Assembly (NCBI GenBank): GCA_008369845.1
Contig: MRSU01005588.1
Span: 1-64,000 of the forward strand
Length of the DNA stretch: 64,000 bases
From: Trichomonas gallinae
Lineage: Eukaryota
Reading direction: 5' to 3'
The stretch's first letter is position 1. The number at the start of each line of letters is the position of its first letter. Below, piece after piece: positions 29,801 through 60,300 of this stretch. Below the pieces are notes generated by a model. That model was not told the origin of the DNA. It saw nothing but the letters and a program-made list of their open reading frames with translations, and did not search any database. The position numbers were made by a program, and so were the translations under genes.

Positions 29801-30548
29801 ATCTTTCAGCAAAATTTTTTTCATTATCGTCATTAAATTTTATGTTAAATCTCGAGACTTCTTTAACCAAAGCCCTTGCAGGATTGAATATACTCTTCAT
29901 ACCAGGTATAGATATCATAAATGTATGAGATTCTGGTTTGTATTTAATAATCTTGCATTTGTGCCAAATTTCTTTTCCTGCTTCAATAATTTTTGTTTTC
30001 GCCATAATATTTTTCTCTCCATTCATTACTCTCTGTTCGTCATTAGAAATTCCATTGAAGCAATCAAAGTAGTCAAGAGGAAGCTTATCTTGAATCTCAC
30101 TCTTGACTTTAATTTTTGGAGGAAAAACTAATTTATGAGATTTTATTGTTTCAACTTGCAACATTTTTTCTATTTGATCCATATCTACACTGTCTACTGG
30201 CTGATCCCATGTCACAACGGGTCCTACTTCTTTTGGGCGTGCATAAAGTGGACCTGTTTGCGAAGCTCTCATTGTTTGATTGAATAATCTTGGATTCGAT
30301 GGATTATATTTTTCTATTTCTGGCGGCATGACTTCGTTATCTTTCATTACCTTGCCTAGAGTTGTCTTGAATTTGCGTGCTTTCTTTCTTGATGTCTTAA
30401 CAGGCGGTTTTGGTTTTGGTTTAGAAAAATCATTTTCTGGTAGCTGCGAATTCCTCGATTTCTCCGATATCGTTCTAGCTGTCTTATGCTGAACTTCTTC
30501 CTGAAGTTTCTTGAAAGCCTTTTCGAACCGATTCTGGCTCGAACGCAT
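20880..30548 (-). CDS. Degenerate dynein heavy chain-like protein (3222 aa)
   Basis: Axonemal inner-arm-like N-terminus (LPLDYFD..W..C..VSRFNIKF..FAERL..A..R..E), linker remnant ISPRMALIPD, degenerate P-loop GPPFSGTS (25707-25730), intact GPTGSGKT (24834-24857), coiled-coil stalk with MTBD-like NPPEPVR..GDYWSEAR..LLHWLQAV, AAA5-like YDPHG. Confidence 0.82.
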   Translation of the reverse strand: MRSSQNRFEKAFKKLQEEVQHKTARTISEKSRNSQLPENDFSKPKPKPPVKTSRKKARKFKTTLGKVMKDNEVMPPEIEKYNPSNPRLFNQTMRASQTGPLYARPKEVGPVVTWDQPVDSVDMDQIEKMLQVETIKSHKLVFPPKIKVKSEIQDKLPLDYFDCFNGISNDEQRVMNGEKNIMAKTKIIEAGKEIWHKCKIIKYKPESHTFMISIPGMKSIFNPARALVKEVSRFNIKFNDDNEKNFAERLKLAERLRNDFENSIRTDEFLDNLDDDNYLSFIRPEFRAKMPKDALIVAERVQKMFAVRGEVQTDDIDDAVDILNSVGADISRYTPKQLKYPLLIHTKFAHNLNVIQKLPLSYSVNIYLKALQQTQLMILNDKETIIHKLNEFVSNKKLLINEWLPLIAEFKRWLIKFMEGFSDNIAKMIIVSLAAVIDTLGDANITATASLHPYFQFTTPESSVFHRFLRRVQLMVREMILDLIDYNKNYFEKLFTHNWKTLETEHVTLDGFTTLSPSISDNNITNLKPIFLIDLGNEVSEMENVLKELYNIIPDVISKLINPAAVIFERSSSAEMHIIKESAFQIYMKRNHIEHLIPPVFAVKQDFIQEYLAPYRELIDELIVDHVNHVNEAFPIMQKETSDIFDFFETDYIPKIDDTFKFITRLIPQKDFFLHYFPSFINLGLFELNFNDFKNTIFECVENKKVLVLDLVSQDLQTKIAQLNGKYESVLKLFKKEITTPEQWAARKAVLDDLPETRKQLGIDAENIMKLYDLLFNLYYGLDSNTVTNILNIKFWPLLIDIELGQAITIATTVGREYIENMPNMIEQLKVEQVKTQEDLANEKNFVVKEQKTEYLKHLEQKIIRIQEIDKQLKESNENMIEEEPRVKLWKVITFYQEMLKKWSVIPIKQLNINQIKDDINGWLLTLRKLTKEFAKDHNSMKSLIFVKNDLERLLPIFKMVAQILSDKIKAHHRKTLEDIIGRKDFENMTLTDFNEMNIIEKIPRITELYNISKGEDKADLELINVRDTINGMKIKIDENNYISNAEQMMSDLKYNQGILKNIIYGIQLKDTKNDLAVKMHAKIVRMMRCLDKFISLQEHIKLLNPFSSYEIDKQIRSAMSGQLQSLNQLKNDWITFILEIQQDPLLIKFCDNSVYVTALKETESSAVGLRSEFIDVIISFRNISPRMALIPDVKIVETFSDNIDVKLMVLSIMFQGIEEWVVNNGNLNGLVLESGDTLTFDQEINLLVPLISQVPKIESMIISTMKNLFFKFLNNEISLSILPLQLKILAIINNPDLDIDNLQISALQRKILISYKQTLKNVQKPMHLNVDKAKQTITIISGSVSIDYCFQVSSVNTAMFSPILHETFCNIIEKINIGNPILIHSALSAVSVLSVKLFCYVSGRSLLLLHSTKTMSIFRIPQLINSLSTINVFVCIDEIQIMKQIQLFDFSKCKTSKPFFCTATTLFVSDLVKTMCSIIFIDKDDFNKHLENIGNTLFPAQYSDVNFAVSKLTQYIHPYLIQQYFDYSFENSGGKLIFNFLSNFKQVVPEQLIKESNITIEEMMMKTPKKTLNVGKNMLQTKAFKYNFDKITELINTKQRVFLMSGPPFSGTSTVIEAATLSLGLEYFYIAFTCENWVNVLTAMLVQTRDKKCVFHLLVPFANPFLYHSTSVIENSMVCEGLNSLMSIGSNTIIIFELMEPVVNASQISIPIISFTQPLVTFSDLLNYWLINDNVQFDEQMQETVRNIANELISTPLQLQSFFKIFACFCNTYRPETTNSLYIILGLSIFWSKSKYLETEDEYRQYSKQIKTSLQIEHVFKKDIIDYSYKTTFKPLEIYEIKKSHDLAIVDETLLDKYAATYCGPIEFTNIPCMQFLHAVKNLTIMLQNKVDCFLQGPTGSGKTTIINYICDTAFIEPNFSSVRVNGNAITLEWFIDMISSISTISVEDIIEPTLKIPTLIVFDPIPNKDTNLYGFILSMIKCKSIIINNNVVKLHNFIFLLTGDSCEHQIEDAVFMFKIPKYQLIDMKMISHEIIARSILIRHDPQANKMISKAIQNFDSVLEECFELIPKNGNLHLLCLLARKVINFKDPTSEGYVTYLQYNLNRLIPEYHKDDFLNPKFMMTTSNDTDYFITNQEDPKFTQFVQAKLHENFDEIALSDDGNLFLSYVIHCLTTPYSHPLVVDDMKCDYEYIVELGCQIMNAKLLRFNSSDNLWQLVLNAITASEIYVLFMRNPVENLLEMIYDKLKNSMLEHIIKAMSMKSLNEAVTSTLFTVCKFPFAGLISQEAAKFDADNETDNKQQGPGIKAAQSKMKFKINDQRTSTRLQLSFSNRSSTFLLKNTPSKQNYTVRGSAFRYVAMHMFRKLHFVTFISERNQIDQKRIYSFNLWDRSNIMPDVDVSLLKLIFNFMKTGKIKYFVPIHTQFNRIIQKYNFLTKKVQEFIVQRKKFTTKVLSIISSIETAIKDNEALVLSITSQIEIDKTFLQNHIEAIEFRTQFLTSLEKEKVRCEKELEELKDREKLYDEYKKNDSQVTFANYQAVTKIVAKAFTQDEQYKLYIQQNPPEPVRHLFNTFCALHELTPRSDGDYWSEARGYLRVGRFNKVLLVFDPNTVRKDVALQLDVRMKNPLLVEEKFQKDSCCLSLLHWLQAVLTHTKSTKFEATLQIQMDEHTKTIERRTEEYEKILKRIEEAKEDLEMHKKGRDEVKQKLAKEEAMLKKKSDFLTKAKTTASIFPDIKEDLHKFINGEKVYAKNQIPFLVKSTTEIACLPLIHGPNRKKFIAGIDGIFNDSLTDPTFFISLKSVFGTEDPLIISLISGDRLICCYDPHGTEFSIVGGDTGQAAPTLQRRFTFTYTDTSSKKFIEDIKTAASNGNILVIKHANQETLDNQFLTCLASKSARKGVIDNREVVIDINFRVIFFVDKPLKYIPTGITFIHCKNIHLEKIESVILNNNNTIDILEKLTKTEQISHGQREGLYSSIQSLETEMERLHSADGTVLDDVQVQSIVMMNTEKRYQETKVLYDKSIEENKIVCETATKIQEFITDIQNTYEHSSLYLFPFEKITRIINSCPENENKFNFVQKQICNTFAQHHRWGIKQLSGVKPGEFIPGKFNILHFNEITQAAEFYNQKVHSDVVVNIEENSDIKNYSSKLDDCVLTGKTVYFIFFNENKKFYQQLSEFLIQNPTNTWQATSKLFLLVETSYNLPPRLVIESEICFIDI

Positions 30549-41934: not shown

Positions 41935-43410
41935 TTAAAATACATTTCGGTATGAGACAGGAAGACTCATTGTAAGAGTTTCATATTTCGGCAGCTCTTG
42001 TTCTGGTTCTTCATTAGATTTGGTGTAAATTTCTCTTGTGAGTGACTCTTCGAAAATAGAAATTGCGATGTTGAACATAATTGTTAAAGAGAAGAAAACC
42101 CAGATGCTCATGTACAAGAATGGCACCCACCAAGAAACATCAGCGCGATCCATGATGCTATCATATAAATCTTGGATGGAATCTCCATGAATAATAGCAA
42201 TAAGAACAACAGCGCCTTGTGTGAAGGTCGCAAAGTTAACTGCGTACGTGCCGAATAATGAGCAACCTAATACTAAGTATCCTGCAAATATAACGAGGCA
42301 ACCAAGCAAGAATTGGAGGAAAGTAACACCACCTGAGAAGATGACATTGACAATGATCATTGTACTTGGCTTTTGACGAAGGTATCTGATTAATAAGAAG
42401 CAGTGGAACATGGATGAAAGGGCCATGAGAGTATTTGTATATGGGAGCTGATCTTCATATTTGAATCCGTAAAGAGTATAAAGAGTACATGAGACAACTG
42501 TAACAGTGTGACAGAAAAGAGAGAAGAAACACCATTTGTCGTACTTTTCCCAGAAAACATCCACTGGTTTTTGAAAGTTACGTTCGGCCTTTTCTTTAGC
42601 AAAATCATAAACTTCATATGTATACAGCAAAGTTAATATTATGCCAATGGCACCTAATATAATTGTAGCAATAGGGAAAATCATGCCAATTGAGCCAATA
42701 ATTGGATCATTTGTCTTATTATCTGTAATTCTTGTATGATAAAAATCTACCAAGATTATATCACTATCTGTATCACGTGTAAATTCGCCAATAACTTCTA
42801 ATTCAACACGATTATCAACAGTATTTTCACTAACTTGCAAAGAATACTGCTGTGACATAATAATCTGTGCAAATGAGTCGAGGAAAGCATTAACTAATGG
42901 CGTTAAGAGAGTAACATTGCGTTGTGAGAATTTAACATCAAGTCTTTGTCCTCCAATTGTAACAATTGTGACATCAAAAGTATCGTATGGATAAAATGGA
43001 TGAGTAAGCGGGAGATCTTTTGAAAATGAGAAGAATCTGTTTCCAGTTGATTGTGTAACCTCGAGTAATTTTTGTTTGAAGTAGATTGTTCCTATCCAGC
43101 TATTTGACATTTCTGCTGGATCATCGAAATCATAGCCAGAAAGGAAATAATTGTCAATTGTTTTAGTAAAAGCAATTGTAAAATCATTAATTGATACTTG
43201 ATTTGTATAACCTATAAGAATATACATGATCATCATTGAAACTTCAATGAAACAAATCCAAGGAAGCTTGTAATCTAATGTCCAATTTCTAAAAATACGA
43301 TGGGGTTTATATCTCGAGCTATATTTTTTCTTATGATGAAGAATTGGTCGAAAATGAGCATTGCCCTCCATAGAAATTAAACTTAATCCACTGGAGGGGC
43401 TGTGATTCAT
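41935..43410 (-). CDS. Mucolipin/TRPML-like (polycystin-family) cation channel (491 aa)
   Basis: Basic N-terminus and PW before TM1, long luminal loop, five more hydrophobic segments; FAGYLVLGCSLFG, pore FATFTQGAVVLIAIIHGDS, S6 FLYMSIWVFFSLTIMFNIAISIFEESL. Confidence 0.8.
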   Translation of the reverse strand: MNHSPSSGLSLISMEGNAHFRPILHHKKKYSSRYKPHRIFRNWTLDYKLPWICFIEVSMMIMYILIGYTNQVSINDFTIAFTKTIDNYFLSGYDFDDPAEMSNSWIGTIYFKQKLLEVTQSTGNRFFSFSKDLPLTHPFYPYDTFDVTIVTIGGQRLDVKFSQRNVTLLTPLVNAFLDSFAQIIMSQQYSLQVSENTVDNRVELEVIGEFTRDTDSDIILVDFYHTRITDNKTNDPIIGSIGMIFPIATIILGAIGIILTLLYTYEVYDFAKEKAERNFQKPVDVFWEKYDKWCFFSLFCHTVTVVSCTLYTLYGFKYEDQLPYTNTLMALSSMFHCFLLIRYLRQKPSTMIIVNVIFSGGVTFLQFLLGCLVIFAGYLVLGCSLFGTYAVNFATFTQGAVVLIAIIHGDSIQDLYDSIMDRADVSWWVPFLYMSIWVFFSLTIMFNIAISIFEESLTREIYTKSNEEPEQELPKYETLTMSLPVSYRNVF

Positions 43411-45365
43411 TTATTTTTATATTATCGTCACTTTTTATTACTTGGCACTTTTTAAAATATAAAACGTGTCAACATTAAAATCTTCAATTTTAAAAATTGG
43501 GAAAATGTAGCCTATAATTTGGACTAGTATTCGGTCCATAGTATCTATCCATGGTATAGGTTTTATCCCGATGATATCTAAGAGATTCATGAGGGAGTTT
43601 TGGAGTTGATTTCAAATTATATCAAATCTTGTAAACAAAGCTAACCATGAGATTCTTATAAAATTCGATGAAATATGAAGTTTGTAATCAATCAAAATAT
43701 TAATTACAGTTTAAATATTATACATGATATATTACAAGAACTGTAATCAGGTAAGTGTATAAGTTAATTGTATGTAAATTACATGTGCATTGACACTTGA
43801 TGTTGTATTTTAGTGTGAATAACATAAATAATGAAAAAATGATAAAATATTCGAGCTTTATATGAATGATTTGCAAATATATGCAGAGCAAAGTAAGTAT
43901 TAATGCATTTGAATTATATTCTAAGAGCGCTGCTGTATTAAAAATGCATGTTTTAATTCGAATATTCTGTATTAATTTAGCTAGGCTCAAAATAATATGA
44001 GATCAATAGTTATCTATGGCATAGCAATGCATATGTATGTTTTAAAGGAGATTGGCGTACATTTTTTTGGAGCTCCAAGTTAGATTTTGAAAATAATACT
44101 ATGTAAAACTACATTTTATTCTTGATTTTTTTGAATTTTTCTAATTTTGGTTTTAAAAATCTTTGAATATCGAACTTTTGTATCTGTAGATAGAATTTGT
44201 TTTAACCCTTTAGTATGAACTTAACAACAAAAATAAGAAATATGATGAATGTGTAAAATAATATGATTTTTTTTAGTCTCGTAAAATAAATTGATGTATT
44301 AATGCATTATTTACTGGATTATATTAAAGAAATGTATTAATTTTAAGGAGTCATACATAGGAGTTGACGCTGAAATAAACAGATTTTCATATTGATCTTC
44401 TGATTTCATCCGGATGTATGGCATACAGATACGATAATTGTATTTTAATCATCGAATTTTACTTGTTTATGGTTTGTTTTATACATTTCATAATATTATA
44501 TTGACATTCCAAATCAGCCTTATAAACCTTTTTGAAGTTGAAGGATGTTGATCAGATATATGTATACTATGAGTGGATTATTTTTTTTTTCAAAAGTTCT
44601 GTGATACATTTTTTTTCCCCAAATTATCGAAATTGTTACCTTAGATTTTCGAATGCTTGTCGAGATATTATTGTAAAACAGAAGATTTGGCTACGAAGGT
44701 AGGTCGCAATTACGAGACCAATTTTATATCTAATAATGTTTTAACAAAAATTTTGAAACTGTGGATGAAAGTTATATATGTGATAGCAACACTAGTATAC
44801 TATCCTTTTGATTCAAAGAGAATTCTCTTGCCTTTGAAAATGGAACTTTGCCTTAATGAAAATTTTCCAGAGTTTTTTATATAAAATGTGTCATTATTAA
44901 AAGTGACATCAAAATATAGTAGATTATTTTGAATTCAATTTAAGAAATGGGAAAAATATATTATATATAATAACTTTAGATTTACTGCATCTTTCACGCC
45001 CATAAATCATTTCAAATCGTTAATTATTTGGTCACTTTTTCGGATTCATCAATTTCCACAAAATATTTTCTGATGTTTACAAAATTATCCACGAGCTGCA
45101 TTTTAGCGAAAAACAGCAGGGTTTGACCTATTTCCTTAGTGGATTTCGCATACTATATCAAGCACTATAATATGGATATATCACCATTGCCCAAAATAGC
45201 GTAGATAAGGAAATCCACAAAATTTTTTTTGTCACTTTTAAGGTTTCATAAAAATGTGTCATGCATCAAAATTTTTTGATAACTTTACAGTGTTTCGCAC
45301 AAATTTTTTGATTAACAGATAAACAAGCCAATTCCACGCCTAATGAAATCATTTCTGATATATAA

Positions 45366-45392: not shown

Positions 45393-48300
45393 ATGGATGG
45401 TGTTGTCACTCTCTATACAGTGTCCCAAGAGGCACCAGAGAACTACCAACCATTCCAGTATTATTTAGATTATACAGGAGACGAAGCTATTCAAACAGCA
45501 AAGCACTATTTAGGCGTCCCTCCAGAATTTGCATGCAATGCATACATTCAAAAAGGTGATGGATCAACTTTTTGGCTTGATATGACTCAGACATTGAGAG
45601 CTCAAGGACTTGAAATGGGAAATGTCATTGGTCTTCAGTACATCGCAACTCCGCAAATCGATGTAGGACAGCAAATGGCACAACCTGTCACCCAAGAGTA
45701 TTTCCAGCAGATACCAGGTGTCGAACCACAGTACATGCAGCCAAACGATCCTTACCAAATGCAACAAGTTTCTAATTTCGATCCAGTTGCTTTACAGTCG
45801 CCTGAACTCAACTCAGTTCAGGACTTCATGCTTCCAGAGTTCGATTCTTCAGCTCTGGCATTCAACAGCATGGTTGGAGACTTCACAGTTCCATCATGGT
45901 TCCAATCTAATAACGATTTCAACGATGCCGCGCAGTTCGCGACTGGCATGTTTGCCAACATCAACTTCAACTTCGCTATGCAAGAACCTGATAGTTTACA
46001 AGTCTCGCAATCGATTACAGCGAACGCAATTAACATGGAAGATGCAGAATACACAATTGTTGGCTCAACAACAGATGAATACGAATTTAACATCAACTCA
46101 TCCATCGCTGACTTCAACTCTGGACTCGGCTGGGGCGCAGCCTCAGGAGAAGGTGGTCCCGGAGAAGAATTCACAGAAGATGTCGTCACAATCCAGACAT
46201 TTATGCAATTCAAGGAGCCAGGAACAAAGGTTATCTACAGACTCAGCGATAATCCGCAGGAAGCCCTTTCTATGGCCCTCATGACGATGGGTAAAGATCA
46301 AGACGAAGAATTTGCCTTATTGATCATCGGCGAGGCCATAACAGACGATGGAACACCAGAGTCAAACTGGTTCGATGGAGATAAGCTTCTTTCTGACTTC
46401 CAGCCAAATCCGAAATTCGAAATCCACATTTTCCCGAAGTATATGCCAGTAACTGTACACACACAGCACTACAATTCTCACAAGCTTAACTTAGACATCA
46501 CAAAGAAGGTCGGTGACCTTGTTGGTGACGTCGCACAAGAATTAAATCTCGATTCTTTCCACTGTTTCACACTTTGCTCACTTGAAACGCAAAATTCACC
46601 GAAATACATGTCAATCGAAAAGTCAATTCCAGAACAAACGAAATATCTCAAAGAAGTTTTATTCATCCGCCAATACTACCTTTTCACAGTCGAAGATATT
46701 ACGACAATGGAACAGGCTATCTACGCTTTCGAAGATGCTAAAGAGCTTGCTAACAAGAGCTCTCTTGAACTTAGAAAGGAAGAAATCCTCAGATACGCCG
46801 CTCTTAACTACGTTGCGACAAACAAGGGCAAGACATCAGATGTTCCAGATGATGTATCTCCATATCTTCCAGACAAATACGCAAAGAAAGGACGTGGGGC
46901 CGGCAAAGGTGAACATGTCCAAAAATTCATCGACAAATATAAGCAATACTTCGATCATTTCAACGCTATCAAGAACTTCATCGGATTCTTACGTCATGTC
47001 CCAGGATTCGCTTCCCAAAAGTTCGAATGCCACTTCACAACAAAATTCCGTGGCGAAGACGTCGATTTGAACGTTGTAGTCGAAATCAATCCATACAGAC
47101 TCAACATTTATAACAGAGAGAATGGCATGCTCGAAGAAAATGTTTCATACTCGGAAATCATCTACGTCCAATGCGTTGACACACTCGATGTTCGCTTTGC
47201 CCCAGGCCCAGGCAAGAATGCTCTCTATCAATTCGAGTGCAACAAAGTCGAGCAGATGTACAAATTAATCTCCCGCTACAGAGAGATCACAAACAGGATC
47301 TACACAGACCGTGCGAAGAAGTACGCCAACAAGGGAGACTTCCAGAGCCTCATCACAGAAAAAGGAACAATTTATCTCGGAACAACAACAGATCTTAGCG
47401 ACGCAAACATCAAAGAATACAGATACGACAAGAAGTTCACAGGTGGGATCCTCCGCAAGGCCGCCGAGAACTACCTCAACATCCCAGAAGACGAAAATCA
47501 CGTTTGTCTCATTCACTTAGTTGATACAGTTTATCGCTGGGCGAAGGAAGACGATATTCTTCAAACATACTCACTCCAAGATGGTATGGTTGTCTATATT
47601 CTCAACCGCTACAAAGAAATTCGTATCCATTATCCAGATGATACAGTCAAAACAGTCAGAGTCGACATTACTCTTTCTATCGAAGAAATTACGAAATTCC
47701 TCTTCAAGAAGGCAAGGCTTCCAGTCATGCTGGGCTACACATTATGGTGGCCAGATGCGAAGAAGAACCTTGTTCCACTCGATTTCCGTATGACATTACC
47801 AGAACAAGTTGATGACTACAAAGAACTTTATTTCAGGAGAAGATTCTACGTTCTTTCCGCTGAAGTTCTTCAATCAACAGCATCTGCTGTCCAAACAGTC
47901 ATAGAATGCAAGAAATACATCGAAGAACAGAACTACAAGCTCGAAGACAACCAATTAATCAATCTCGGCATGAATTATTTATATGCAATCGGAACTCGTA
48001 ACATTCGTAAAGGAAAATTCGATCTTCAAGATTATGTTCCAAAGGCAAACACTATTAGCCAAAGCTTGAACCAAGAATTCAATCATCTGTTGAATGATGC
48101 CAAAGATACAACACAGCTTTCAGCTGCCAAGAAATACATCGCTTTAGTTCGTGGCTTGCCAGACTTCGGTGTCGAAAAGTTCAAATTCTCATCATACAGA
48201 GATGATTTCGGAAAAGGCCAAGTCATCAAGAAAGGCTACTTGTTCATTGGCCCATTCGGCGTCCAAATCCTTGATCCGAACGAGAAGCCGGTCTTCGAAA

Positions 48301-51300
48301 GAATTCCTTACAGACAGGTCAAATCATATTCAGCTTCACCGAACAACTTCAAGATCATTTTCGCTGTCCACAGACACACAGTCACTGGCTTCATCCGCAT
48401 CCGTGATTCTTCTCAGGTTGATATGATGATCACATATAACATCAAACTCAATCACGATTTGCAGATCCTCAACAAGGAAAGAAAGATGGAGCAGGCATTG
48501 GAAACAGCTCTCAGACTCAGTGGAGGCTGGAAGGATGAACAAGGCAGAGTTCACGGCCCGATGCTCGACTTCAGGATTGGTGTTTGGGGCGATCCACAGC
48601 TCAAAGAAACAACATGGTTCGATCTCGAAACACCACAGCCTAAAGTTCTCGAGACTTCATTAATCGTCACAAATCTCGATCAGAAAGAACAATGGGCGAC
48701 ATTAGTACAAGTCGTCAAAGGCGTCAACAAGTGGCTGCTTCCAGATATGATCCTCAGCGATGTTCATCCATATCGTGATGCAATTATTTATGTCCATCCA
48801 GCTAAATTATTGATCAAGTTCATTGTCTCAGATAAGCGCACGAAGGTTATCGAGATTGTCACAACTAAGACAGTCGAAGAACTAATCCCAATGATCGGCG
48901 ACAAATTCAAGATCAAGAACACATTGGGATATGCATTATTCGCTCCAGAGAGGAAGGAGAAACTCAGAACACTCGACAACTATAAGACAATCACAGAGCA
49001 GATCAACAAAGTCGCTGATCTTTACTTCAGAAGGTTCTTCTTCGTCATCAGCAAGAGCGAACTCGAAGACCCAGACTCACTTCTTGATCTTTACTACGAT
49101 GTCAAGCAGCTCGTTCTCGAAGGAAAGGTCGACATGAAGCTTCCTCTCGCTCTTGAACTCGCTTATTATTCGATCATCGCTGAACACGAGAATCCAAGCA
49201 CATCACACATCGCAGAAGATTTGTCGACAATGCTTCCGGCTGGAATGCAGTACCACAAGAAGTCAAGAAACGAAATCGTTGAAATGCTCAAGAAGAACCA
49301 GATCAAGACAACAAGAGAAGGCATGCTCAAGTACATCAACGCAGCACGTGCATTACCAACATTCGGTGCCACAAAGCACAACTGCACATTCATCCAGCGC
49401 GATGACAAGAAGGTCGCTGAAATTCCAGCAGTCATTCTTGTCGGTCCATCGAGAGTTTTCGTCGTCGGAAAAGCTCGCAAAGAGCAACTTGCTGAAGCAG
49501 AATATCGTCACTACATCAGGACAGAGTTCACAGACTCAGAGCTTCTCATCAAATACTCTTCAGACAAAGATACAGCATCGCAACACATCTTAGTTCGCGC
49601 TAGTGATCCGTCAATCATCGCAACTTTCGTCACAAAGCACATTAATATTTTACAACAGCTCCTTCACCGTCGCGTCTCAGAACTCGATCCAAACGCTGAC
49701 CCAGTCACATCAAAAGAGAGAGTCATTCTCAGAACATCTCGCGGCTGGAAGATAAAGGAAAACGATCCAATCCAGGCATACGATATGAGATATTCAGGCA
49801 TCCAAGTTCTCGCTCGTGCTCGCAAGCATCTTAAGCTCACAGAGAACATATCCTACTCTCCACTTCTTCAGCTTACTGATGATGAATTCCGGTGGATTGC
49901 TCCAGATGACCTTCTCGGCAACTACTTCCCATGCGACTACATGATCCTTCAGATCTTCCCGACACTCGTTCAGCTCAAAGTACATCTTGAGAACCAGCCA
50001 ACAGTCACAGTTACAGTAGATATCACGAAGCCACTTCATGAGCTCATTTCTCAAATCGCTGATCGTCTTTTCATCGACTATGCTATCGGCTACACACTTT
50101 GGATCGAGCGTCCGAACAAGTCACCACTTCCACTCGACTTATGCCTCTCCATTCCAGAGCAAGTCGCTGAGCCAACAGACTTCTTAGTCAAGCGCCGCTT
50201 CTTCTCATGGACAAAGGAAGACCGCCAGCAAGATTTCGTCGTAAGATCAATCTATCCAGATGTCAAGGCCAACATTCTCTCAGGCATCCCAACACTTCAG
50301 GATTCAAGGCCGCAAGAACTCGCCATTTACTCAATCTACGCTGAGAACCGGGGAATCAAAGATCCACAACAGCTTAAGATCCCTGAAGTCAAAGATCTCT
50401 TCCCATCGAACACGAAGAAGGACAAGATCAACATGGACAACATCAAGAAGTACATCAGAACTAACCCAGTCATGAAGCAGCTCATCGCACTCAAGAAGTA
50501 TATCCTCGTCGCGAAGAACTGCAACAACTTCGGCTCTGAAATCTTCAACTGCACAATCTATGATGACGTCAGAATCAAGACACCTGCTGATATCAAGATC
50601 GCTATCGGTCCAATCGGCGTCGGCTTCCAGGGCAGCTACATGAAGACGAACTCCGATGGCACAGAAACACCAGCTAAACTCAACGAACGTATTTCTTACC
50701 AATACATCCATGACTACTTCCTCATGGTCGACCACGTCACAATCCGCGTTTCTCAAGCCAACGGCAAAATCAGATCATTCCAGATCCAGTCTCGCAAGGC
50801 CAAAGAGATCTTCTCACTCCTCAAGCAGTACATTGAGATCATCAACAAGATCATCAAGGCTCGTGAGCGTCTTCAGGCTCAAAACGAAGACTTCAAGAAG
50901 AAGATCACAGGCAAGATCGACTTCCCGATCAAGATCCCAGTCACTCGCCGTCTCGATCACCCGAACCCACCACAGTTTAAGTTCGGCAGAAACTTCACAG
51001 GCCACGAAATCATGGAACTTTCTCTTTACTACTTCGCTCTTCCACAGGAAGTTGATAAATGGTGCCTTTTGTACAGAAGCGAGAAGATCGAAAACGAAGA
51101 AACCAAGAAAGTCTACCACTGGTTCAGACCAACACAGAAGCTCCAGGAATACAACCCAACGCCTGGCGATCTCATCATTCTTCTCCCACTTAAGCCATCA
51201 GTCACTGTTGAAACAGAGCACGGACTTTCTCACACATTCAACCTCGATGTCACACAGCCAATCTTAGAGCACACGAAGGAGACAAACGAGTTCTTCAAGA

Positions 51301-54300
51301 TCGGATCCAACCTCGGCTTCACATTCTACGACAAGCTCGAGGACGACTCTTTCCATCCACTCGACTTCACTCGCTCAATTCCAACACAGACACAATACTT
51401 CAGCAACATCATGCTCAGGAGAAGGTTCTTCATCTTCACATACGAAATGTTTGATGATCCAGAGTCTGTCATGTCCATCTACATGGACACGAAGCTCTTC
51501 ATTGTCCAGGGCAAGCTCGTCGTCAACGTCGAAAAGGCCATCGACTTGGCCATTCTCTCATTATACGCAGAGACAGACGACACAGCTAAAGTCCTCGAGA
51601 AAGCAAACAGCATGAAGGTTGAACAAATCCAGGAGCTCTTCCCGAAGGCAATCGACGTCGATCAGAACCTCGCAGAGAAGTTCTCGAAGGCGGTAACAGT
51701 CCAGCCACCACTCGACAAGATCAACGCTGCTAAGGCATACATCAACAACACAATGATGATGCCAGGCTACGGTGAAGAAATTTACGATGTCAGGTACACA
51801 TATATCGAGGAAATGGGCGACAGCCAAGAAGACGATGGCAGAATCTCTGTTTCACCACGTTCCATCCTCATTCTAACAAACCAAGGACAGATTATCGGCG
51901 AGATCTTCTATCCGTTCCTTTCGGAGTGGAACTTGTATGATAAGAACAAGATGATTCCATTCACACATCTCCAAGACATCAACCCCGATACATTCATCCA
52001 GTTCGACTACACAGACTTCTCTGCTATGCACTATACAGTCAGAATAGAGTCTAAGCAGATCGAGAACATCGCATCATATGTCTCCAACTTGCTCGAAATC
52101 TTAGGATGGGAGAATATCGGACACATCATCGACTACAACCAGGGTCTCAACTTCAACAGAGAAGTCCACGTTGATGAAACATATCTCCTCGATGAAGACT
52201 TCTTCCACCACAACTTTGATAACATCGAAACAATCGAAATCAACCTCGACCATACATTCAAGATCGATCTAGATGATGATGACGATGAGAGAAACTTCAC
52301 ATTCAACGTCAACACGAACTTCAACGAACAAGAGTTCAACGAAGATGCTGGCGATTCTATCATGGACGATGACTTAGAATGGCGTGCAAATCCAGATGGT
52401 CTCCAGTACCAGCGTACAAAGAACCTCCTCGACATGATCGAGTTGGAACTCCAGATCTCACCAGAAGATATCGAGAAGCTCAATCCAACACAGTTCTTCC
52501 AACAGCTCGCTACACTTAACGACTCAATCAACCAGTTCACGACAGAGTGCACGAACGATGATCTTAGAGACAGATTCTTGAACATCCGTACAAGCATTGA
52601 TACTCTTTGCGACACAACACAAAACATCGTTCAAAACGATCAGGAAATTCGTCCATTCGTTGATATCATCCACACACAGCTTGCTCAAGCTTTGCAATTC
52701 ATCCCTGTTGCTCGTTCGCAGTCTGACTGGATGTTCGACAACTTCAAAGTTCAAATCAAAGAGAAGTCTCAACAAGTCACAACTGGCCCGAACAAGAAGG
52801 ACATGCCCGAGCTTTCAAAGAGTCTCATCATGATCTCAGACGCACAGGAATCTATTGCAGATACACTTCTCAGGAACTCCGGCCTCCTCAAGATCATGAA
52901 CATCGACACAATGGACCTCCAAGACAGGCTTCGTAACACATCAGCGACACTCACCAGACTTTCTGCGACACTCACAGAGCAGAAGAACCTCATGATGATC
53001 GCTCCTCACCTTATCCCACAGGTCACAAGTGCAACAAATGCACTTCAGGAGATCCAGGAGATCTTAGATACAGTCAAGGCAAATGATGTCTCTATTGCTG
53101 ACCTCGGTGAAGCACAGACCAAGCTCAGAACATTGCTAGCTGCTGCGCAGAAGCAGATCAGAGAGCAGGCAGTCAACCAGCCAGAACTTACACGCCGTGC
53201 AGTCATCATCATGGGTAACGACAATAGTATCCCAGAGACAATCTCAGGCCTTGAAGACATCCCAACATCTTCCATCAAGGAACTTCCAGAGGCAGCACAA
53301 GGACTTACTAACACAGCCATCGATGCTATCGAAGAGCTCAAGAAGAATCTTACACAGCTCAAGCTCAATCAAACAAGCGAAGCAGCAAGACTTGAAGCAA
53401 TCGCTTCACTCCACAGAACCAGCGACTCTGTTAAGGATGCTCTTGTTCAGCTCCGCAAGATTGGACTTGGCACAGTTCAAGATTCTCTCATCCTCAAGTT
53501 GAGCAACATCGAGAAACTTGTTGCCAACGAATTAGATTTGGTATCAACTAAGAACATCACGCCAGTCTCAGTCGCCAAAGTTAACGATGACCTCACATAC
53601 ATGCTCAACTTCTTCGCACGCATGAAACCATCAGCGGTTGCCCAACTCAATGAGAACGACCAGATGGTTCTTAACAAGCTCAAGGACTATCAGTTCAACC
53701 TTGCTCAGCAGCAGTCTGCTCTCATGGTGAACACAATCGACCCGAATGCTGTCTCAAGAGCACAATCTATTCTCATCCAGTTGAAGCAAGAGTTCCCAGA
53801 CATTTCTATCTCTATTTCACACATGGCCAGCATCGCAAACGATGCCAAGCTTCCGATCATCATCGAGCGTCTCGACATGAACATCAACAAGTCTCTTACT
53901 GATCCAATCGTTCAGGGTGAGAACTTGTCTGCTTGCGAATATGTCCTCAAGATGCAGGAAGCCAACTACGCGACAGCCAACCTCCTCAACGAACTCGCCA
54001 ACATCAAGAATCTTCCATCAGTTGCAGAAGACCAAGAACTCGCTGAGCGTTGCGCAAGAGCAATTGAGATGTCTCAGAAGGCATACTTGGATCTCAACGA
54101 CATCAGAAACGATGTTGTTCCAAATCCATTTTCAAGGAAGTCTCTCGACAGAACATATGAAGTCATCGTCAAGAACGTCAGCGCAATGAACGAAATCAAA
54201 GTTCTCGCTCACCGTGTCGCTGATGTTGCACAGAACGTCAGAATCGACCAGCTCACAGATGACATCATCGCAAACTACAACGCTGTCATCCACGGCCTTG

Positions 54301-57300
54301 ATAACGCACACATCGATGTTCTACCAGATCTCAACTCTAAGGAGCCAGCGAAGATCGAGAAGGTTGTCCCAACATCAGAAGATGCACAAAAGGTTTTGGA
54401 TTCACTTTCCAACATGATCCAAATCGCTTCTTATCTCGCTGGCCTTCCAGAAGTCACAGCAGATCCAGCCCTCTACAACGGTGTCAGCGCCGACTACCAC
54501 GCATACTATGCACAGTACAATGATGTTCAGGCAATGCTCGCTAATCCGAACGAGTCAATATATCCAATCATTCAGGATCTCATTGGCCGCTCTCAGAACA
54601 TGCACAACATTGCTATGTCTATCCCATCATATGCAAACACACCGAACTCCAGCGAATCCATTCCATCTATTATTACACACGTACAGACAATCAAGATGCC
54701 ATCAATGAAAGATGAAGCAGAAATCGTCGTCAGTTTCGAAGACGTCAAGAAGTCCCTCAAGGATTCCAAACCAACAATCAAAAAGCTTCTTGATATCATC
54801 AAAGATCTCAGAACGACAGAAGATGTCAAGGGCAGCAGGGCAACACTCCAGACACTCGATGACTGGACGAAGTCGCTCGAATCTGTTCTCAACAAGATCG
54901 AGATCCACAGCACAGATGCAAACTACACGAAGCAGATGGCTATGAACGACAAGGAAGCACTTCTTGTCGCTCAAAGGAAGATGGTCGTCATCCCACTCAA
55001 AGTCAGGCAGACATTGCAGAAGGATCAGATCGAAGACCTCACACCAGCACTCGAGCAGTTTAACACTGCTGCTCTTGGCTCTATTGCTTTGATCAGAAAC
55101 CTTCCACGCTCAAAGAAGATCGAGTTGAAGAAGTTCACACTTCCACACATCGAAATCGATACAGAAGTCGATGACCTCGTCGGCATGTTAGTTGACTACT
55201 CTAAGGAAGTCAACAAGATCATCGACATCGTCATCAACCTTCCACAAGTCCATGACTCATTGAACGCACTCAACCTCATCAACCAGATGAAGCAGAGCTT
55301 CACATACATCGACTACGAAGCACTTCGTGGACTCGATGAAGAAGACTTCATGGAGAAGTTGGTTTCTATCCACAACACAATTCCAGCATTGATTGCATCG
55401 GCTGAAATCCTTCAACCTCTCCTCGACAACGATGCTCTTACCGTTGCACTCAAGGGATTCAACGATCTCGCAAACAGCTCATACAAGATGATCTCAGTTC
55501 CACACATGAACACACACAAGTCTGCGGAGTTCCAGAGCCAGATCCTTCCACATCTTCAGCACGCGGACCAGATGATCACAGAAGCATACAAGATCGCAGA
55601 AATCAAGACAAACGTCAAACTCGTCAACCAGCTTCGTGGTGTCCATCATCTCATCAAGTCAAGCATCACAGAGCTTCCAACACTCAAGCCTCGTCTTGTT
55701 CAGACAAGATGCGACGACATCTATGGCTCCGTTTGCCAGGTCTTGCCGTCATTATACGATGCAGGCAACTTCGACAATCTTGAACGCAGCTTGCAGAACC
55801 TCGGCTTCATCGCTGAGAACTACACTGCTCTTCCAACTCAGCGCAAGGGTAAGACAGAAATACTCGTCTACAAGGACAAGCTCATTGAAGACCAGGCACT
55901 CAAGCACCTCGTCGAATCTCTCAAGGATAACTTGACGAGCGACCTCAATGAGTTCACGAACGAATTGAAACAGAACATCAAGGAATCTCTCAAGGTCATC
56001 CACGATCACCAGAACAGTGTCTCACCATCTGTTACACTCGCAGTCAACGAATTGATCAACTTAATCAACCGTAACAACGACACAGCAATAATCCCAGCAG
56101 CAAAAGTCATCAACAATGTTAGCAACAGCTACGACGAAAGAACAGAGAACCAGGCAGAAATTGCCCTTTCATCAACAGTTGCTGCCTCAATGCAGCTCTT
56201 GAAGATGATCAAGGCTATGAAGTATCTTCAGGACCAGATCCACGACAACGCAAGAAAGTTTGGCTCAGATGTCTTTTATTACACAGAGCGTGCTAACAAC
56301 AACATCAAGGATGCTGATGCCAAGCTCCTTGTCGAATGCCAGACACTTCCAGCAGCTATTCTCAACATCGACAACCTCCACAAGAACAGAGCAGACATTG
56401 CTCTTGTTATTCAGTCTCTCGAGGGCAACGAGCTCGTTAAGGGCATCGTTCAGCCACTCGAAGAATCTTTGGTTACATTCAGCGACAACGTTCATGCTGC
56501 TGACTCTTCATTCGCATCAATTCTCCTCAACAATCTCGAGAGAATCGCATGCCCACTCGATAAGATGAACATCGTCAGCCCACAGACATCATCACAAGAG
56601 ATGCTCAATTTCTTAACGAACATCATCCCGATCATCAGATCAATCGACAGACAGAGAATTGTCGGTCGCCAGGAGCTCATGAACGTTTGCAGGATCTACA
56701 AGGACTTCGTTGCTAATGTTTATGGAACAATCAACTTCATCAAATCCAAGTACCAGAAGCCAGTTGACGAAGCCATCAAGGCTCTTGAAAAGTACAAGAA
56801 CATGATAGACATGTACTCAGAGCCACCAACATTCTCAGACAGAGCAGAAGCTATTTCTCACTTACTTGCTACTTCTGTCCTCGCCAAGAAGTCTTTGGCT
56901 TCTGTAGCACAAGATGCACAACAGAACCCAGAGAGCGCTGGCACAGTTCTTTCTCCAACAACTGACATCATCGACGAACTCGTATTGACACATTCTATTG
57001 CAGAGCAGTACGGATTCAAAGATGAAGAGACAAAGGCCAAGATCACAGAGGCATCGCAAAAGATGTCTAAGATCTATAAGGAAACATCCAAGCATGAATT
57101 CGGCCAGACAGCTCAAGATGTTACAGCTCTCGCTAAAGTTCTTAATGACTTAATTGTCACAGTCAACGGCAAGCAGGAGATTGACTTCGAATCTGCTGAC
57201 AGCAACATCAACTTCAAGGATGTCAACGCTGAGCTTTATTTGTCTTCAATCACAGATCAGTCATGCTACAACCTCGCTTTGCAGTCCAACCAGCTCCTTC

Positions 57301-60300
57301 AGAACCTCAAGACACAGATGATGCAGCTCAAGCAGGCTCGCGTCCACAGTGGAAAGCAGTCACAGAATGTCACAGAGATTCTCAAGAAGCAGTCAACACA
57401 GAGCGCATTGGCAGCTTCTTCACTTTCAATTGCTCTCAACCCAACACTCGCCTTCACATCACTAGACGCATCTATCATCGCTCCATCCGTCATTCAGTCA
57501 ATGGAGTATGGCGCAGTTTATGCTGCAGCCGTTCCAATCCTCCAGCAGCCAAAGCTTTCAGAGTCCAACACACGCCTTCTAATCTCACAGAGACTCGAAG
57601 CACTTAGACAGAAGGAGTTGACAGAATTCCCAGACACAGTCAAGATGCTCTCATCCAAGCAAACATTCAAGTTCACATCAGATGAGATCACTGATGCTGT
57701 TATGTCCATCCAATCTCTCTTGAATTCATTCAATGAAGGCACTAAGATTGAAGAAGCACTCTCTCGTCTTACACCATCCCAGGTTCTTGTCCAGCAGCAT
57801 GTTCTCAAGTTTGCTCTCGACGGAATCAAGAACAACATGATCGACACAGGTATCGTCACATCCAGCGAAGGCCTTTCTGCTAACAAGCTCAATTTACTCG
57901 AAGCAGCTGCACACAAACAGGCACAGAACCCATCCAAGCTCAATGTTAGGACAGTCAACGATGTCAACAACGCTTTCGTTAAGAACATGGCTATTGTCAA
58001 CGTCTTAGAGTCGCTTATTTCTATCACACAGCAGCAAATCGCCGAAGTCCCAGAGCTTTGTAGATTCATCAACACACCAGAAGGGCAGTCGATCTTCAAG
58101 AGCCCACTTGACGCTGGCCAGATCATCGAAGCACAGCAACAAGTCCTCAGACAAGTTGCTCTCGCTGACAGCCAGGAGAACCTCGCAGCATACACAAGGA
58201 CATTCACACCAGCACAGCTCATCAACCAGCAGAGAATCATTTCTCACACAGTCTCCATGCTCACAGCCGATGATGTCTACACAATCATCAATGATCCAAA
58301 CGTTGGTACAACACCAATGGAAATCCTTAAGGCTGCAAACCTCAAGGTCCAAGACAAGCTCAAGAACAACGAAGAGAACAACAAGCAGACAGCTTTGATT
58401 GAAACAGACAATGTTTCTAAGCTTCAAGAGTTCTGCAATGATATGATGGAGCGCTTACTTCTTGCCCAAGCTCTCATGACAGTTCAAGCAACACACGATG
58501 CTGCTTTACCAGGCTTACATCAGCAGCTTGAAGCTATTGATGTTGCACAGCCAATTAACGGCCAGTTCCTTGAGCAGCTCGTTCCAATCCTCAAGACAGA
58601 AATCGAGTATTGCAACTCTCCACAGCAGTTCGCTGAAGTCCTCGCTCAGATGAAGCCAGAGGACATCCAATCCCAGCAACCATACATCGCATTCCTTGCT
58701 GGTGCCCTTACAACACTTCCTCGCAATGAGCTCTGTAGCGCATCTTCTGTACCATTCAAGAGCAGCGCAGACGACATCATCGAGAAAATCATTAACTCTG
58801 TTACAGACATTTTGACAGAAGCACCTGAATTGCTTACAGATGTTGATCCAATCAGCAGCGAGACAAACTTCGAGGACTTCACGAACCACTTGATGGTCTT
58901 GAATTCCTGCATGACTGCAACAAACATGGAGAGAATCATCTCACAGATCCGTGCCAACAACGCAATGATTGATCAAGTTGGCCAGGCACAGAATGTTCAG
59001 CAAGTCTTCTCATCCTTCACAAACCAAGATGCAGACAATGTTCGCGAGAATTTGCTTGTTCTCTATGATCTCGTAAACCAGTCAACAGAGGAACTCGATC
59101 AAGCTGTCAAGCAGCTCAGTGAACAGGAGATCCACCAGTCTTACTGCATGTTGATCACTGAACTCCTCAGAGTCAGCAACATCGACAACATCACACAGAA
59201 GGTTAAGGCTCGCAGTGCAGAAACAAGAATCTTCGACCGCTCTCTTCTCATCCAGTCTGAGCCACAGAAGGGGATCGCGCAGCAGCCAATTGCTTCTGTT
59301 TTACCTGATGTTCAAGCAATCGACCCTGAAGTTCTCGAAGAATACAAGAGCTTGGCAAAGGCCTCATTCTCCAGCAACATGACAAGACTTGCTGTCGAGT
59401 ACAACAAGGCTCTCAACAAGCCACTTCCACAGATCCAGGAGCTTTTAGTCCAGCAGCAGGGCAAGTTCGATTTGGCCAAGTTGAACGAACTCGAGCAAAT
59501 AGTTTATCAGCAGATCTACACAATCGGACAAGATGAGCCACAAGTTCTCGCTCAGATCTCTCAGATGTCTGATGAAGACAAAGTTCTCACACAGTCTCTC
59601 ATCATGAACATCTCACAACTCGCTGAATCTGCTCAGTACATGGATGCAGTCTGCACAAACATCAACTTCCTTCCAGCTGATTTAGATGATCCAAAGGTCA
59701 TCGATCAGACAAACCAAGTCTCTGCTGCAACAATAGCAATGAACTTGATCCAGTACCAGCAGCAGATGCTCCAACAGTCCACACACTTTGTCACACAGAT
59801 GCCACTTCCAAACGCAGCAGTTCTCGAGAAGAACGTCGCTGCAGCTAAGGAAATCCAGAACCGCTCACTCATCACATCCAAGCTTGCAACTCTCCAGAAG
59901 CAACTCCTCACAAAGAGCCCAGAACTCCATGGTCTCGTCGAACAATCGAAGCAGAATGGATCAGTTAAGATCAACATTTCTCCAGAGTTACTCGTCCAGC
60001 TTCAAGGAGAAGTCAAGTCTTTGGTTTCCACATCTGCTACAGCATCAAGAATTGTTCCACTTGCAGCAGGCGACAGCGATGACAACATCAAGCGCCTTGC
60101 TGTTATCAACAACCTCGTTTCAATTGTCAAACCACATACAACTGTTATCACACCAATAACATCCTTGGAGAACTTCCAGTCAATCTTCGACGACAAGTAT
60201 AATGCTGCAACAGTTCCTGTTTCAGTCAGCTTAATCGTCGTCAACAAGCCAAGGACACAGCTCATGGCCACAGCATCGGCTGCTCAGACAGCTGCTGGAT

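What the first reader, a model, noticed from the sequence alone, without database searches (positions are those of the whole stretch)
46182..52103. Five complete talin-type FERM heads in tandem in one 5838-aa protein
Seen: five ~360-390-aa repeats at about 46182-47288, 47364-48449, 48561-49652, 49719-50843 and 50925-52103. Each has an F0-like unit (WFDGDKLL, WAKEDDIL, WLLPDMIL, WIAPDDLL, WFRPTQKL), an F1-like unit ending SIPEQ/TLPEQ/TITEQ/SIPEQ/SIPTQ plus an RR(F/Y)-type motif, an F2-F3 junction (FIGFLRHVPGFA, YIALVRGLPDFG, YINAARALPTFG, YILVAKNCNNFG, YINNTMMMPGYG) and an F3 terminal helix. Known: animal and amoebozoan talins have one head (F0-F3; junction YVKLARSLKTYG) on a ~2500-aa chain, linking membrane receptors and PIP2 to actin. 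Inference: a multivalent talin able to cluster several receptor tails or lipid sites, possibly the core of an integrin-independent adhesion or mechanosensing system in an adherent trichomonad. I do not know of a described five-headed talin, but cannot exclude an existing annotation.
Basis: partly seen in the sequence, partly recalled or inferred. Interest (0 to 1): 0.88.

Follow-up and report, generated by a model that had tools for sequence, protein, structure and literature searches.

The report
Five-headed talin-like giant in trichomonads
One trichomonad gene encodes a giant protein with five talin-type head units in a row, a layout shared by its relatives in the parasites Trichomonas vaginalis and Tritrichomonas foetus, and it likely ties the cell membrane to actin in a group where we found no report of talin.

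Summary
Confirmed. One uninterrupted 5838-aa ORF carries five F0-F1-F2-F3 heads that are 18-27% identical to each other. A profile of the five heads matches solved talin heads best (E 1e-26, against 5e-6 for kindlin). Heads 1 and 2 model as complete four-part FERM heads.

All 8 full-length homologues found have five heads, including T. vaginalis TVAG_252220 and T. foetus TRFO_05648. This makes misassembly very unlikely. Heads group by position across species, so the array is old and each head probably has its own job. They lack talin's F1 loop and its integrin-pocket tryptophan.

The C-terminus looks like a THATCH (I/LWEQ) actin-binding domain, but that evidence is moderate: Foldseek ranks talin first, while Pfam gives only E 0.006, below cut-off, in 1 of 8 proteins. 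The first half of the rod is unassigned.

Databases call it only 'FERM domain-containing'. Ten literature searches found no multi-headed or trichomonad talin, and two papers confine talin to Amorphea. The scan had not noted it before. No partner, location or actin binding is shown.

The parts
45393..62909 (+). Single uninterrupted ORF, 5838 aa
   Evidence: a 97.7% identical 5839-aa protein from another assembly
45349..45353 (+). Initiator-like TCATT 44 nt before the ATG (motif recalled for trichomonad promoters; a short motif, may be chance)
45402..45641 (+).
   Evidence: F0 HMMs iE 6e-6 to 2e-8; modelled as a beta-grasp at pLDDT 61-87; head profile finds it in 6 of 9 proteins
45648..46181 (+). 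Acidic, predicted disordered linker (aa 86-263, net charge -26)
46182..47288 (+). Head 1, F0-F1-F2-F3
   Evidence: model aligns to a talin head over 366 of 378 residues, Z 19.2, rmsd 6.0
47364..48449 (+). Head 2, F0-F1-F2-F3
   Evidence: model aligns to kindlin over 342-352 residues, Z 19-19.9, rmsd 4.1-4.5, and to three-lobed FERMs at Z about 20; Pfam IRS/PTB E 0.0018, FERM_M E 0.0024
48522..48566 (+). Conserved motif just before head 3, the most position-specific conserved stretch of the array
   Evidence: strict pattern in 7 of 10 proteins scanned, one miss being a fragment; several columns shared by 7-8 of 8 head-3 rows and rare in the other 32
48561..49652 (+). Head 3, F0-F1-F2-F3 (not modelled)
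   Evidence: FERM_M 40.3 bits, above cut-off; RA_2 E 5e-5
49719..50843 (+). Head 4, F0-F1-F2-F3 (not modelled)
   Evidence: leave-one-position-out HMMs iE 1e-8 to 7e-24; RA_2 E 0.0017, FERM_M E 0.068
50925..52103 (+). Head 5, F0-F1-F2-F3 (not modelled); net acidic
   Evidence: FERM_M 25.9 bits, above cut-off; net charge -20 here and negative in 7 of 8 proteins
52104..52532 (+). Acidic neck between heads and rod (aa 2238-2380, net charge -29)
52533..57554 (+). First half of the rod (aa 2381-4054): amphipathic-helical by sequence, family unassigned
   Evidence: helical periodicity; no PDB sequence hit; no relevant Pfam hit; no usable Atlas hit for aa 2381-3950
57555..60212 (+). Degenerate ~145-aa repeat (aa 4055-4940): 4 copies detected by HMM here, spacing suggests 6
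   Evidence: 3-6 copies detected in each of 8 proteins; reversed-sequence control best iE 0.22
60255..62261 (+). Five predicted 4- and 5-helix bundles of talin/vinculin/alpha-catenin type (aa 4955-5623)
   Evidence: model pLDDT 82.5
62262..62768 (+). THATCH (I/LWEQ)-like bundle (aa 5624-5792)
   Evidence: HIP1R THATCH core Z 14.2, rmsd 3.8, 165 of 194 residues, but Z 10.9 in the wide search; Pfam I_LWEQ E 0.0059 over aa 5696-5832
62826..62900 (+). Terminal helix, the most conserved part of the C-terminus, in the place of talin's dimerisation helix
   Evidence: all 6 invariant columns of the last 230 aa lie here in 8 of 8 proteins; helix in the model at pLDDT 66-69

Best explanation
This is one giant protein with five talin-type heads and a long helical rod, and it is likely a divergent talin that links the trichomonad cell membrane to actin. 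Shown: the five-head array, its conservation, and the position-specific identity of each head. Inferred, by analogy with talin: (1) the six F0 and five F1 ubiquitin-like units would read small GTPases of the Ras/Rap kind; (2) the basic F2 patch of heads 1-3 would dock on acidic lipid such as PIP2; (3) each F3 would bind its own receptor tail or partner, not an integrin-type NPxY motif; (4) the THATCH-like end and terminal helix would dimerise and grip F-actin; (5) the bundles between would bear, and perhaps sense, tension. On this view the array is a multi-input membrane anchor with five specialised docks, not five copies of one dock.
For: The five-head profile hits 48 PDB sequences; the top 13 are all talin-1/2 (E 1e-26 to 3e-20), in one stretch from the end of F0 through F3; next come PTPN21 (8e-13) and kindlin (5e-6). 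Foldseek with the head model: the top 12 rows are talin heads (E 1.5e-18 to 4.5e-16), then kindlin at 7.6e-15. Foldseek with the C-terminal 900 aa: the 2 matches at E <= 0.001 are both full-length talin, then Sla2 REND+THATCH (3.9e-3). VIA aligns model residues 44-846 in order to talin 1458-2479 and 686-854 to HIP1R THATCH. Pfam I_LWEQ is the top family for the last 230 aa, covering profile positions 7-140 of 151 at the expected place. The Atlas lists talin-rod clusters first for aa 5478-5838 (0.85, a lead only). Five heads in 8 of 8 homologues; five clades by position with support 0.96-1.0. The F2 patch has net charge >= +2 in 6 of 8, 7 of 8 and 6 of 8 rows for heads 1-3, against 1 of 8 for head 5. 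Pfam RA_2 matches F1 (E 6e-15 summed). T. vaginalis adhesion depends on actin and membrane PIP2 (PMC10758264 abstract; PMC10434240 passages).
Against: The rod has no significant sequence match to talin: phmmer finds none, the 8-sequence C-terminal profile finds no talin, HIP1R or Sla2, and Pfam I_LWEQ is below cut-off (17.1 against 27.5 bits) and seen in only 1 of 8 members. VIA Z-scores of 12-14 lie in the range that generic helical bundles reach: designed bundles score 13.0 and p130Cas FAT 13.3, tied with talin R6 at 13.6. The long talin alignments have rmsd 35-40, so only the order of domains agrees. Three of the modelled bundles have four helices where talin's R9-R11 have five (talin counts recalled). 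For head 2, VIA ties kindlin and ERM-type FERMs with talin. The first half of the rod is unassigned. The integrin-pocket tryptophan is kept in 1 of 40 heads. The T. vaginalis orthologue was recovered from a hydrogenosome membrane fraction.
Confidence: 0.6

Rival explanations
1. Independent assembly: a talin/kindlin-like head was multiplied and fused to a Sla2/HIP1R-like tail. The protein would couple membrane to actin in endocytosis or phagocytosis and resemble talin by convergence.
For: The last two domains match Sla2 REND+THATCH as well as they match talin (Z 13.4-13.5, about 311 residues). The rod is about 3460 aa, holds a repeat not known from talin, and its first half is unassigned. The Atlas shows a separate cluster, mostly Parabasalia where taxa are known (2 members), with I_LWEQ in 84% of 55 members and no FERM listed. 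An earlier scan note reports talin-like F0-F1 on a RhoGAP elsewhere, so these modules may move (unchecked).
Against: The head is clearly nearer talin than kindlin by profile and by Foldseek. A head, a neck, a run of bundles, a THATCH and a terminal helix in that order is talin's layout, and talin outranks Sla2 in Foldseek.
Confidence: 0.15
2. A talin descendant that no longer binds actin at the surface and serves as an internal scaffold or organelle tether, for example at hydrogenosomes or along cytoskeletal fibres.
For: TVAG_252220 is listed among membrane proteins of purified hydrogenosomes (PMC3174187 section 5). The I/LWEQ signature is much eroded.
Against: The paper did not localise this protein, TMHMM predicted no membrane helix, and the authors note cytoskeletal carry-over in the preparation. 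No 19-residue window exceeds hydropathy 1.7. The terminal helix is the most conserved part of the tail.
Confidence: 0.14
3. One reading: five equivalent heads cluster several copies of one receptor tail or lipid by avidity.
For: All five heads are complete and the number five is fixed in 9 of 9 full-length proteins.
Against: Same-position heads of different species are more alike (26.5%, 140 pairs) than heads within one protein (18.8%, 80 pairs; maximum 26%). There is no sign of homogenisation. Head 5 is acidic while heads 2 and 4 have basic F3 lobes. Old divergence alone could produce the clades, so this weakens the idea without excluding it.
Confidence: 0.1
4. Artefact: a misassembly, or several genes read as one.
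For: No transcript or read spanning the gene was found here.
Against: One open frame of 17.5 kb. The same layout occurs in 8 other proteins from NCBI, Logan, JGI and ENA assemblies. The T. vaginalis protein has an identical sequence under two GenBank accessions, one on a 20.3-Mb contig. The heads share no DNA word over 12 bases.
Confidence: 0.01

Closest known systems
Talin-1/2 of animals (PDB 8fso, 6vgu, 3ivf, 6r9t, 8vdq); Dictyostelium TalA/TalB
   Same: F0-F1-F2-F3 head with best sequence and Foldseek match to talin; unstructured neck; rod of helical bundles; THATCH-like last bundle and a terminal helix.
   Different: Five heads plus a lone F0 instead of one head; no F1 loop (F1 is 81-93 aa; the profile matches loop-deleted talin constructs in one stretch and full talins in two); integrin-pocket residues not kept; rod about 3460 aa with a ~145-aa repeat; no Talin_middle, VBS or IBS2 Pfam hit.
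Kindlins (FERMT2/3; PDB 5xpy, 6v97)
   Same: Four-part F0-F3 head; head 2 aligns over 342-352 residues at Z 19-19.9.
   Different: Much weaker profile match (E 5e-6); F2 is 107-116 aa with no inserted PH domain; kindlins have no rod (recalled).
Sla2/HIP1R (PDB 9hdd, 1r0d)
   Same: A five-helix bundle followed by a THATCH-like domain and a terminal helix.
   Different: No ANTH domain in Pfam scans; FERM heads in its place.
Vinculin / alpha-catenin / FAT-domain bundles
   Same: The four-helix bundles of the C-terminal rod superpose at Z 12-13, rmsd 2.2-5.7.
   Different: Fold-level likeness only, at a Z that generic bundles also reach.
TVAG_252220 (T. vaginalis G3; UniRef100_A2DVW4) and TRFO_05648 (T. 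foetus; UniRef100_A0A1J4K3R1)
   Same: Likely orthologues: five heads, same order, collinear to the C-terminus; 38% and 30% identical over the heads.
   Different: Named only 'hypothetical protein', 'FERM domain-containing protein' or 'Second domain of FERM family'; not named talin.

Membership tests
Talin | N-terminal FERM head with an extra F0 (F0-F1-F2-F3) | tested here: met
   five copies, heads 3-5 by sequence only
Talin | Single head per chain | tested here: not met
   five heads in 9 of 9 full-length proteins; this is the variant
Talin | Unstructured loop inserted in F1 | tested here: not met
   F1 is 81-93 aa in 40 of 40 heads; full talins match in two stretches
Talin | F3 pocket for NPxY receptor tails (R358/W359; numbering and role recalled, columns) | tested here: not met
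   W in 1 of 40 heads, aromatic in 16 of 40; R/K at the preceding column in 10 of 40
Talin | Basic membrane-facing patch on F2 | tested here: inconclusive
   net positive in most rows of heads 1-3, mixed in head 4, near neutral in head 5; charge count only
Talin | Rod of 13 four- and five-helix bundles (R1-R13) with vinculin-binding helices | tested here: inconclusive
   last 900 aa model as six bundles, talin first in Foldseek; no Pfam rod family; aa 2381-4938 not modelled; VBS not scanned
Talin | C-terminal I/LWEQ (THATCH) domain | tested here: inconclusive
   fold match Z 14.2 and 10.9; Pfam E 0.0059 below cut-off, 1 of 8; profile search of PDB negative
Talin | C-terminal dimerisation helix | tested here: inconclusive
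   a conserved terminal helix is present in 8 of 8
Talin | Binds F-actin and receptor tails, bears force | not testable with these tools
   needs bench work
Talin | Nests among talins in a tree | not tested
   no canonical talin sequence could be brought into the script machine; the profile search of all representatives never ran
Kindlin | PH domain inserted in F2 | tested here: not met
   F2 is 107-116 aa in 40 of 40 heads; helical throughout in heads 1-2
Sla2/HIP1R | N-terminal ANTH domain | tested here: not met
   the N-terminus is a beta-grasp unit followed by FERM heads; no ANTH Pfam hit
Sla2/HIP1R | REND plus THATCH at the C-terminus | tested here: inconclusive
   Z 13.4-13.5, rmsd 21, about 311 residues, tied with talin domains

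The most novel reading that the evidence does not exclude
Parabasalids carry a true talin, outside the animal-fungal-amoebozoan group to which talin has been assigned. It was rebuilt before Trichomonas and Tritrichomonas split into a five-headed, multi-input force coupler whose heads each read a different receptor, lipid or GTPase, and it is the missing membrane-to-actin link in trichomonad amoeboid adhesion to host cells.
Probability: 0.4. Interest if true: 0.9.

Novelty: new variant of a known kind. Interest (0 to 1): 0.78.

Why it matters
First, architecture: talins are described as one head on one rod, and a fixed array of five old, position-specific heads plus a spare F0 is a new way to build this linker. 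[quoted passage not shown] A metamonad talin would mean an older origin, a lateral transfer or convergence, each testable with a tree. One preprint already mentions a talin homologue in Ectocarpus, so this would not be the first claim outside Amorphea. Third, parasitology: T. vaginalis adhesion needs actin and PIP2, and PMC10434240 calls the regulatory mechanism unknown. TVAG_252220 is a named, single candidate for tagging, knock-out and per-head pull-downs.

Tried and rejected
No whole genome is held, so paralogues, vinculin and receptor candidates in this organism could not be sought. The profile search of all protein representatives never ran. Whether multi-headed talins exist outside parabasalids, and whether parabasalids also have one-headed talins, is therefore open. 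Word-based searches were too insensitive for this: 0 hits among 7765 candidates of 689-2000 aa; 1 fragment among 7997 candidates under 3210 aa. Neither recovered known talins, so their blanks mean little.

Complex prediction of two copies of aa 5578-5838 gave no answer (score 0.01; alignment not used); it is no evidence either way.

Expression: no RNA holder was listed. Four short contigs of one RNA run lie on 50691-51513 at 90-99% likeness, none bridging head 4 to head 5, and DNA carry-over is not excluded. Metagenome scan: 92 pattern matches, none confirmed.

Weak PDB hits to TAL-effector repeats, a response regulator and a coronavirus spike fragment and Pfam CSN7a_helixI were taken as chance helical matches. 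A transmembrane reading was rejected on hydropathy. All 42 of 42 rod windows give some weak off-site HMM hit, so only the aa 4055-4940 repeat was accepted.

Literature: the search was swamped by 'five ferm(ented)' and is nearly uninformative. PMC2890464 is not held. The actin-machinery paper of Kusdian 2013 was not read. No mention of the gene in 7 supplement files of PMC3174187, with 3 files unreadable that may hold peptide counts, nor in 2 files of PMC10434240. Earlier scan notes: none on this DNA or look-alikes.
Full report
OBSERVATION. The five intervals translate to 362-393 aa each, and all 10 pairs align at 18-27% identity, E 2e-9 to 2e-27. At DNA level no two heads share a word longer than 12 bases, which rules out an assembly expansion. 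HMMs built from four head positions (8 proteins) and tested on the fifth recover 20 of 20 subdomains. The neighbouring genes are ordinary eukaryotic ones without evident introns. The nearest named relatives are trichomonads; the species was not identified.

THE HEADS. Single heads are too diverged for ordinary searches. Pfam FERM_M passes its cut-off only in heads 3 and 5, and heads 1, 4 and 5 find no talin by phmmer. This probably explains why the family is annotated only as FERM-containing. A profile of the five heads hits 48 PDB sequences; the first 13 are talins (E 1e-26 to 3e-20), followed by PTPN21 at 8e-13 and kindlin at 5e-6. The first 58 profile positions, most of F0, are not covered by that match. 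The AlphaFold model of aa 1-1040 (8 sequences, mean pLDDT 69.7, pTM 0.53) fills the gap: heads 1 and 2 each show two beta-grasp units, a helical lobe and a PH/PTB-like lobe. Foldseek ranks 12 talin-head rows first. VIA aligns head 1 to talin over 366 of 378 residues (Z 19.2, rmsd 6.0) and head 2 to kindlin over 342-352 residues (Z 19-19.9), with three-lobed FERMs tied at Z about 20. The fold therefore shows F0-F3; the preference for talin rests on the sequence profile and on Foldseek. Heads 3-5 were not modelled. A lone sixth F0-like unit sits at aa 4-83, ahead of a 178-aa acidic linker.

DIFFERENCES FROM TALIN'S HEAD. F1 has no inserted loop and F2 has no PH insert. Using the columns of the alignment, the tryptophan that lines talin's NPxY pocket (role recalled) is kept in 1 of 40 heads, and the preceding basic residue in 10 of 40. 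The F2 stretch that faces the membrane in talin (role recalled) is net basic in most rows of heads 1-3 and near neutral in head 5. Head 5 is net acidic in 7 of 8 proteins.

CONSERVATION. A search of proteins of 3210-10217 aa gave 8 hits among 1647 candidates, 5003-6053 aa long, among them TVAG_252220 and TRFO_05648. All 8 have five heads. The T. vaginalis sequence stands under two GenBank accessions, one on a 20.3-Mb contig. A FastTree tree of 40 heads from 8 proteins (the 98%-identical P0002 left out; 383 of 484 columns; no outgroup) gives five clades by position with support 0.998, 0.96, 1.0, 0.992 and 0.977. Same-position identity averages 26.5%, against 18.8% within a protein. The array therefore predates the split of Trichomonas and Tritrichomonas and has not been homogenised. 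That favours specialised heads, although long neutral divergence would give the same clades.

THE ROD. After an acidic neck come about 3460 aa with helical periodicity and no transmembrane segment. Sequence searches find no talin rod. The last 900 aa model well (pLDDT 82.5) as six bundles and a final helix. Foldseek's two matches at E <= 0.001 are full-length talin, followed by Sla2 REND+THATCH and vinculin. VIA places aa 5624-5792 on the HIP1R THATCH core (Z 14.2, rmsd 3.8, 165 of 194) and the bundle before it on talin five-helix domains (Z 12-13.6). In the wide search talin R6 (13.6), Sla2 (13.4), p130Cas (13.3) and designed bundles (13.0) are tied, and HIP1R falls to 10.9. Pfam I_LWEQ is the best family for the last 230 aa (E 0.0059, below cut-off) in 1 of 8 members, and the profile of those 8 finds no THATCH protein in PDB. 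The Atlas points to talin-rod clusters at 0.85, which it calls a lead only. All invariant columns of the tail lie in the final helix. These lines agree in place and kind but each is weak, so I count the THATCH as likely, not shown. Aa 4055-4940 hold a degenerate ~145-aa repeat seen in all 8 proteins. Aa 2381-3950 remain unassigned.

MECHANISM. The best reading (0.6) is a divergent talin that anchors actin to the membrane through five specialised heads. GTPase reading by F0/F1, lipid docking by F2, partner binding by F3, and dimerisation and actin binding by the tail are all inferred from talin; none is shown. Rivals: convergent fusion with a Sla2-like tail (0.15), an internal scaffold or organelle tether (0.14), five equivalent heads acting by avidity (0.10), artefact (0.01). 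The one experimental record is the listing of TVAG_252220 in a Triton X-114 extract of purified hydrogenosomes, with no localisation and with admitted cytoskeletal carry-over (PMC3174187; passages and section 5). It shows that the orthologue is made as protein, not where it acts or how long it is.

WHAT IS IN PRINT. Searches: talin+Trichomonas+FERM, 5 papers; talin+parabasalid, 0; TVAG_252220, 1; talin+Trichomonas, 17, where only the top 18-40 rows were seen. None of the listed titles or abstract openings describes a trichomonad or multi-headed talin. Passages read: PMC10846614 (talin not identified outside Amoebozoa and opisthokonts; its figure, which includes T. vaginalis, could not be seen), PMC12686525 (origin in an Amorphean ancestor), bioRxiv 2020.04.29.069435 (mentions a talin homologue in Ectocarpus), and PMC9453864, PMC9145010, bioRxiv 2020.06.12.142943, PMC9928731, PMC2651865, PMC10434240 (nothing on this protein). 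Only the abstract of PMC10758264 was read. Subscription papers, including the 2010 adhesome survey and the 2013 T. vaginalis actin paper, were not seen, so prior notice cannot be excluded.

VERDICT. The feature is real, conserved and apparently undescribed. It is a new variant of a known kind. Interest is 0.78: high for the architecture and the lineage, held down by the moderate evidence for the rod, the missing tree against true talins, and the lack of any functional data.

Noticed in passing
window 57555-60212 (+): A degenerate ~145-aa repeat of unknown fold in the middle of the rod; 4 copies by HMM here, perhaps 6 by spacing, and present in all 8 proteins examined.
   Followed up: partly
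ESM Atlas row 2: A 55-member cluster (representative 1673 aa), commonest taxon Parabasalia among 2 with a record, with I_LWEQ in 84% of members and no FERM or ANTH listed: possibly a second parabasalid THATCH family.
   Followed up: no
window 41935-43410 (-): An ion-channel gene (Ion_trans E 1.8e-6, weak PKD_channel) lies head-to-head with the talin-like gene, about 2 kb away. Synteny could not be tested; it may be chance.
   Followed up: no
window 20880-30548 (-): A 3222-aa ORF with dynein heavy chain DHC_N2 (E 3.8e-24) but only weak AAA matches: short and very diverged for a dynein heavy chain.
   Followed up: no
window 45393-62909 (+): GC at third codon positions is 0.46-0.63 in the heads and 0.55 in the rod, against 0.30-0.46 in 10 neighbouring ORFs. 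This may reflect high expression; not tested.
   Followed up: partly
window 50656-51267 (+), 52133-52627 (-), 57518-58240 (-): Three ORFs of 164-240 aa overlap the giant gene in other frames; taken as shadow frames and not examined.
   Followed up: no
window 13289-14920 (-): A 543-aa ORF with no Pfam match at E <= 0.1.
   Followed up: no
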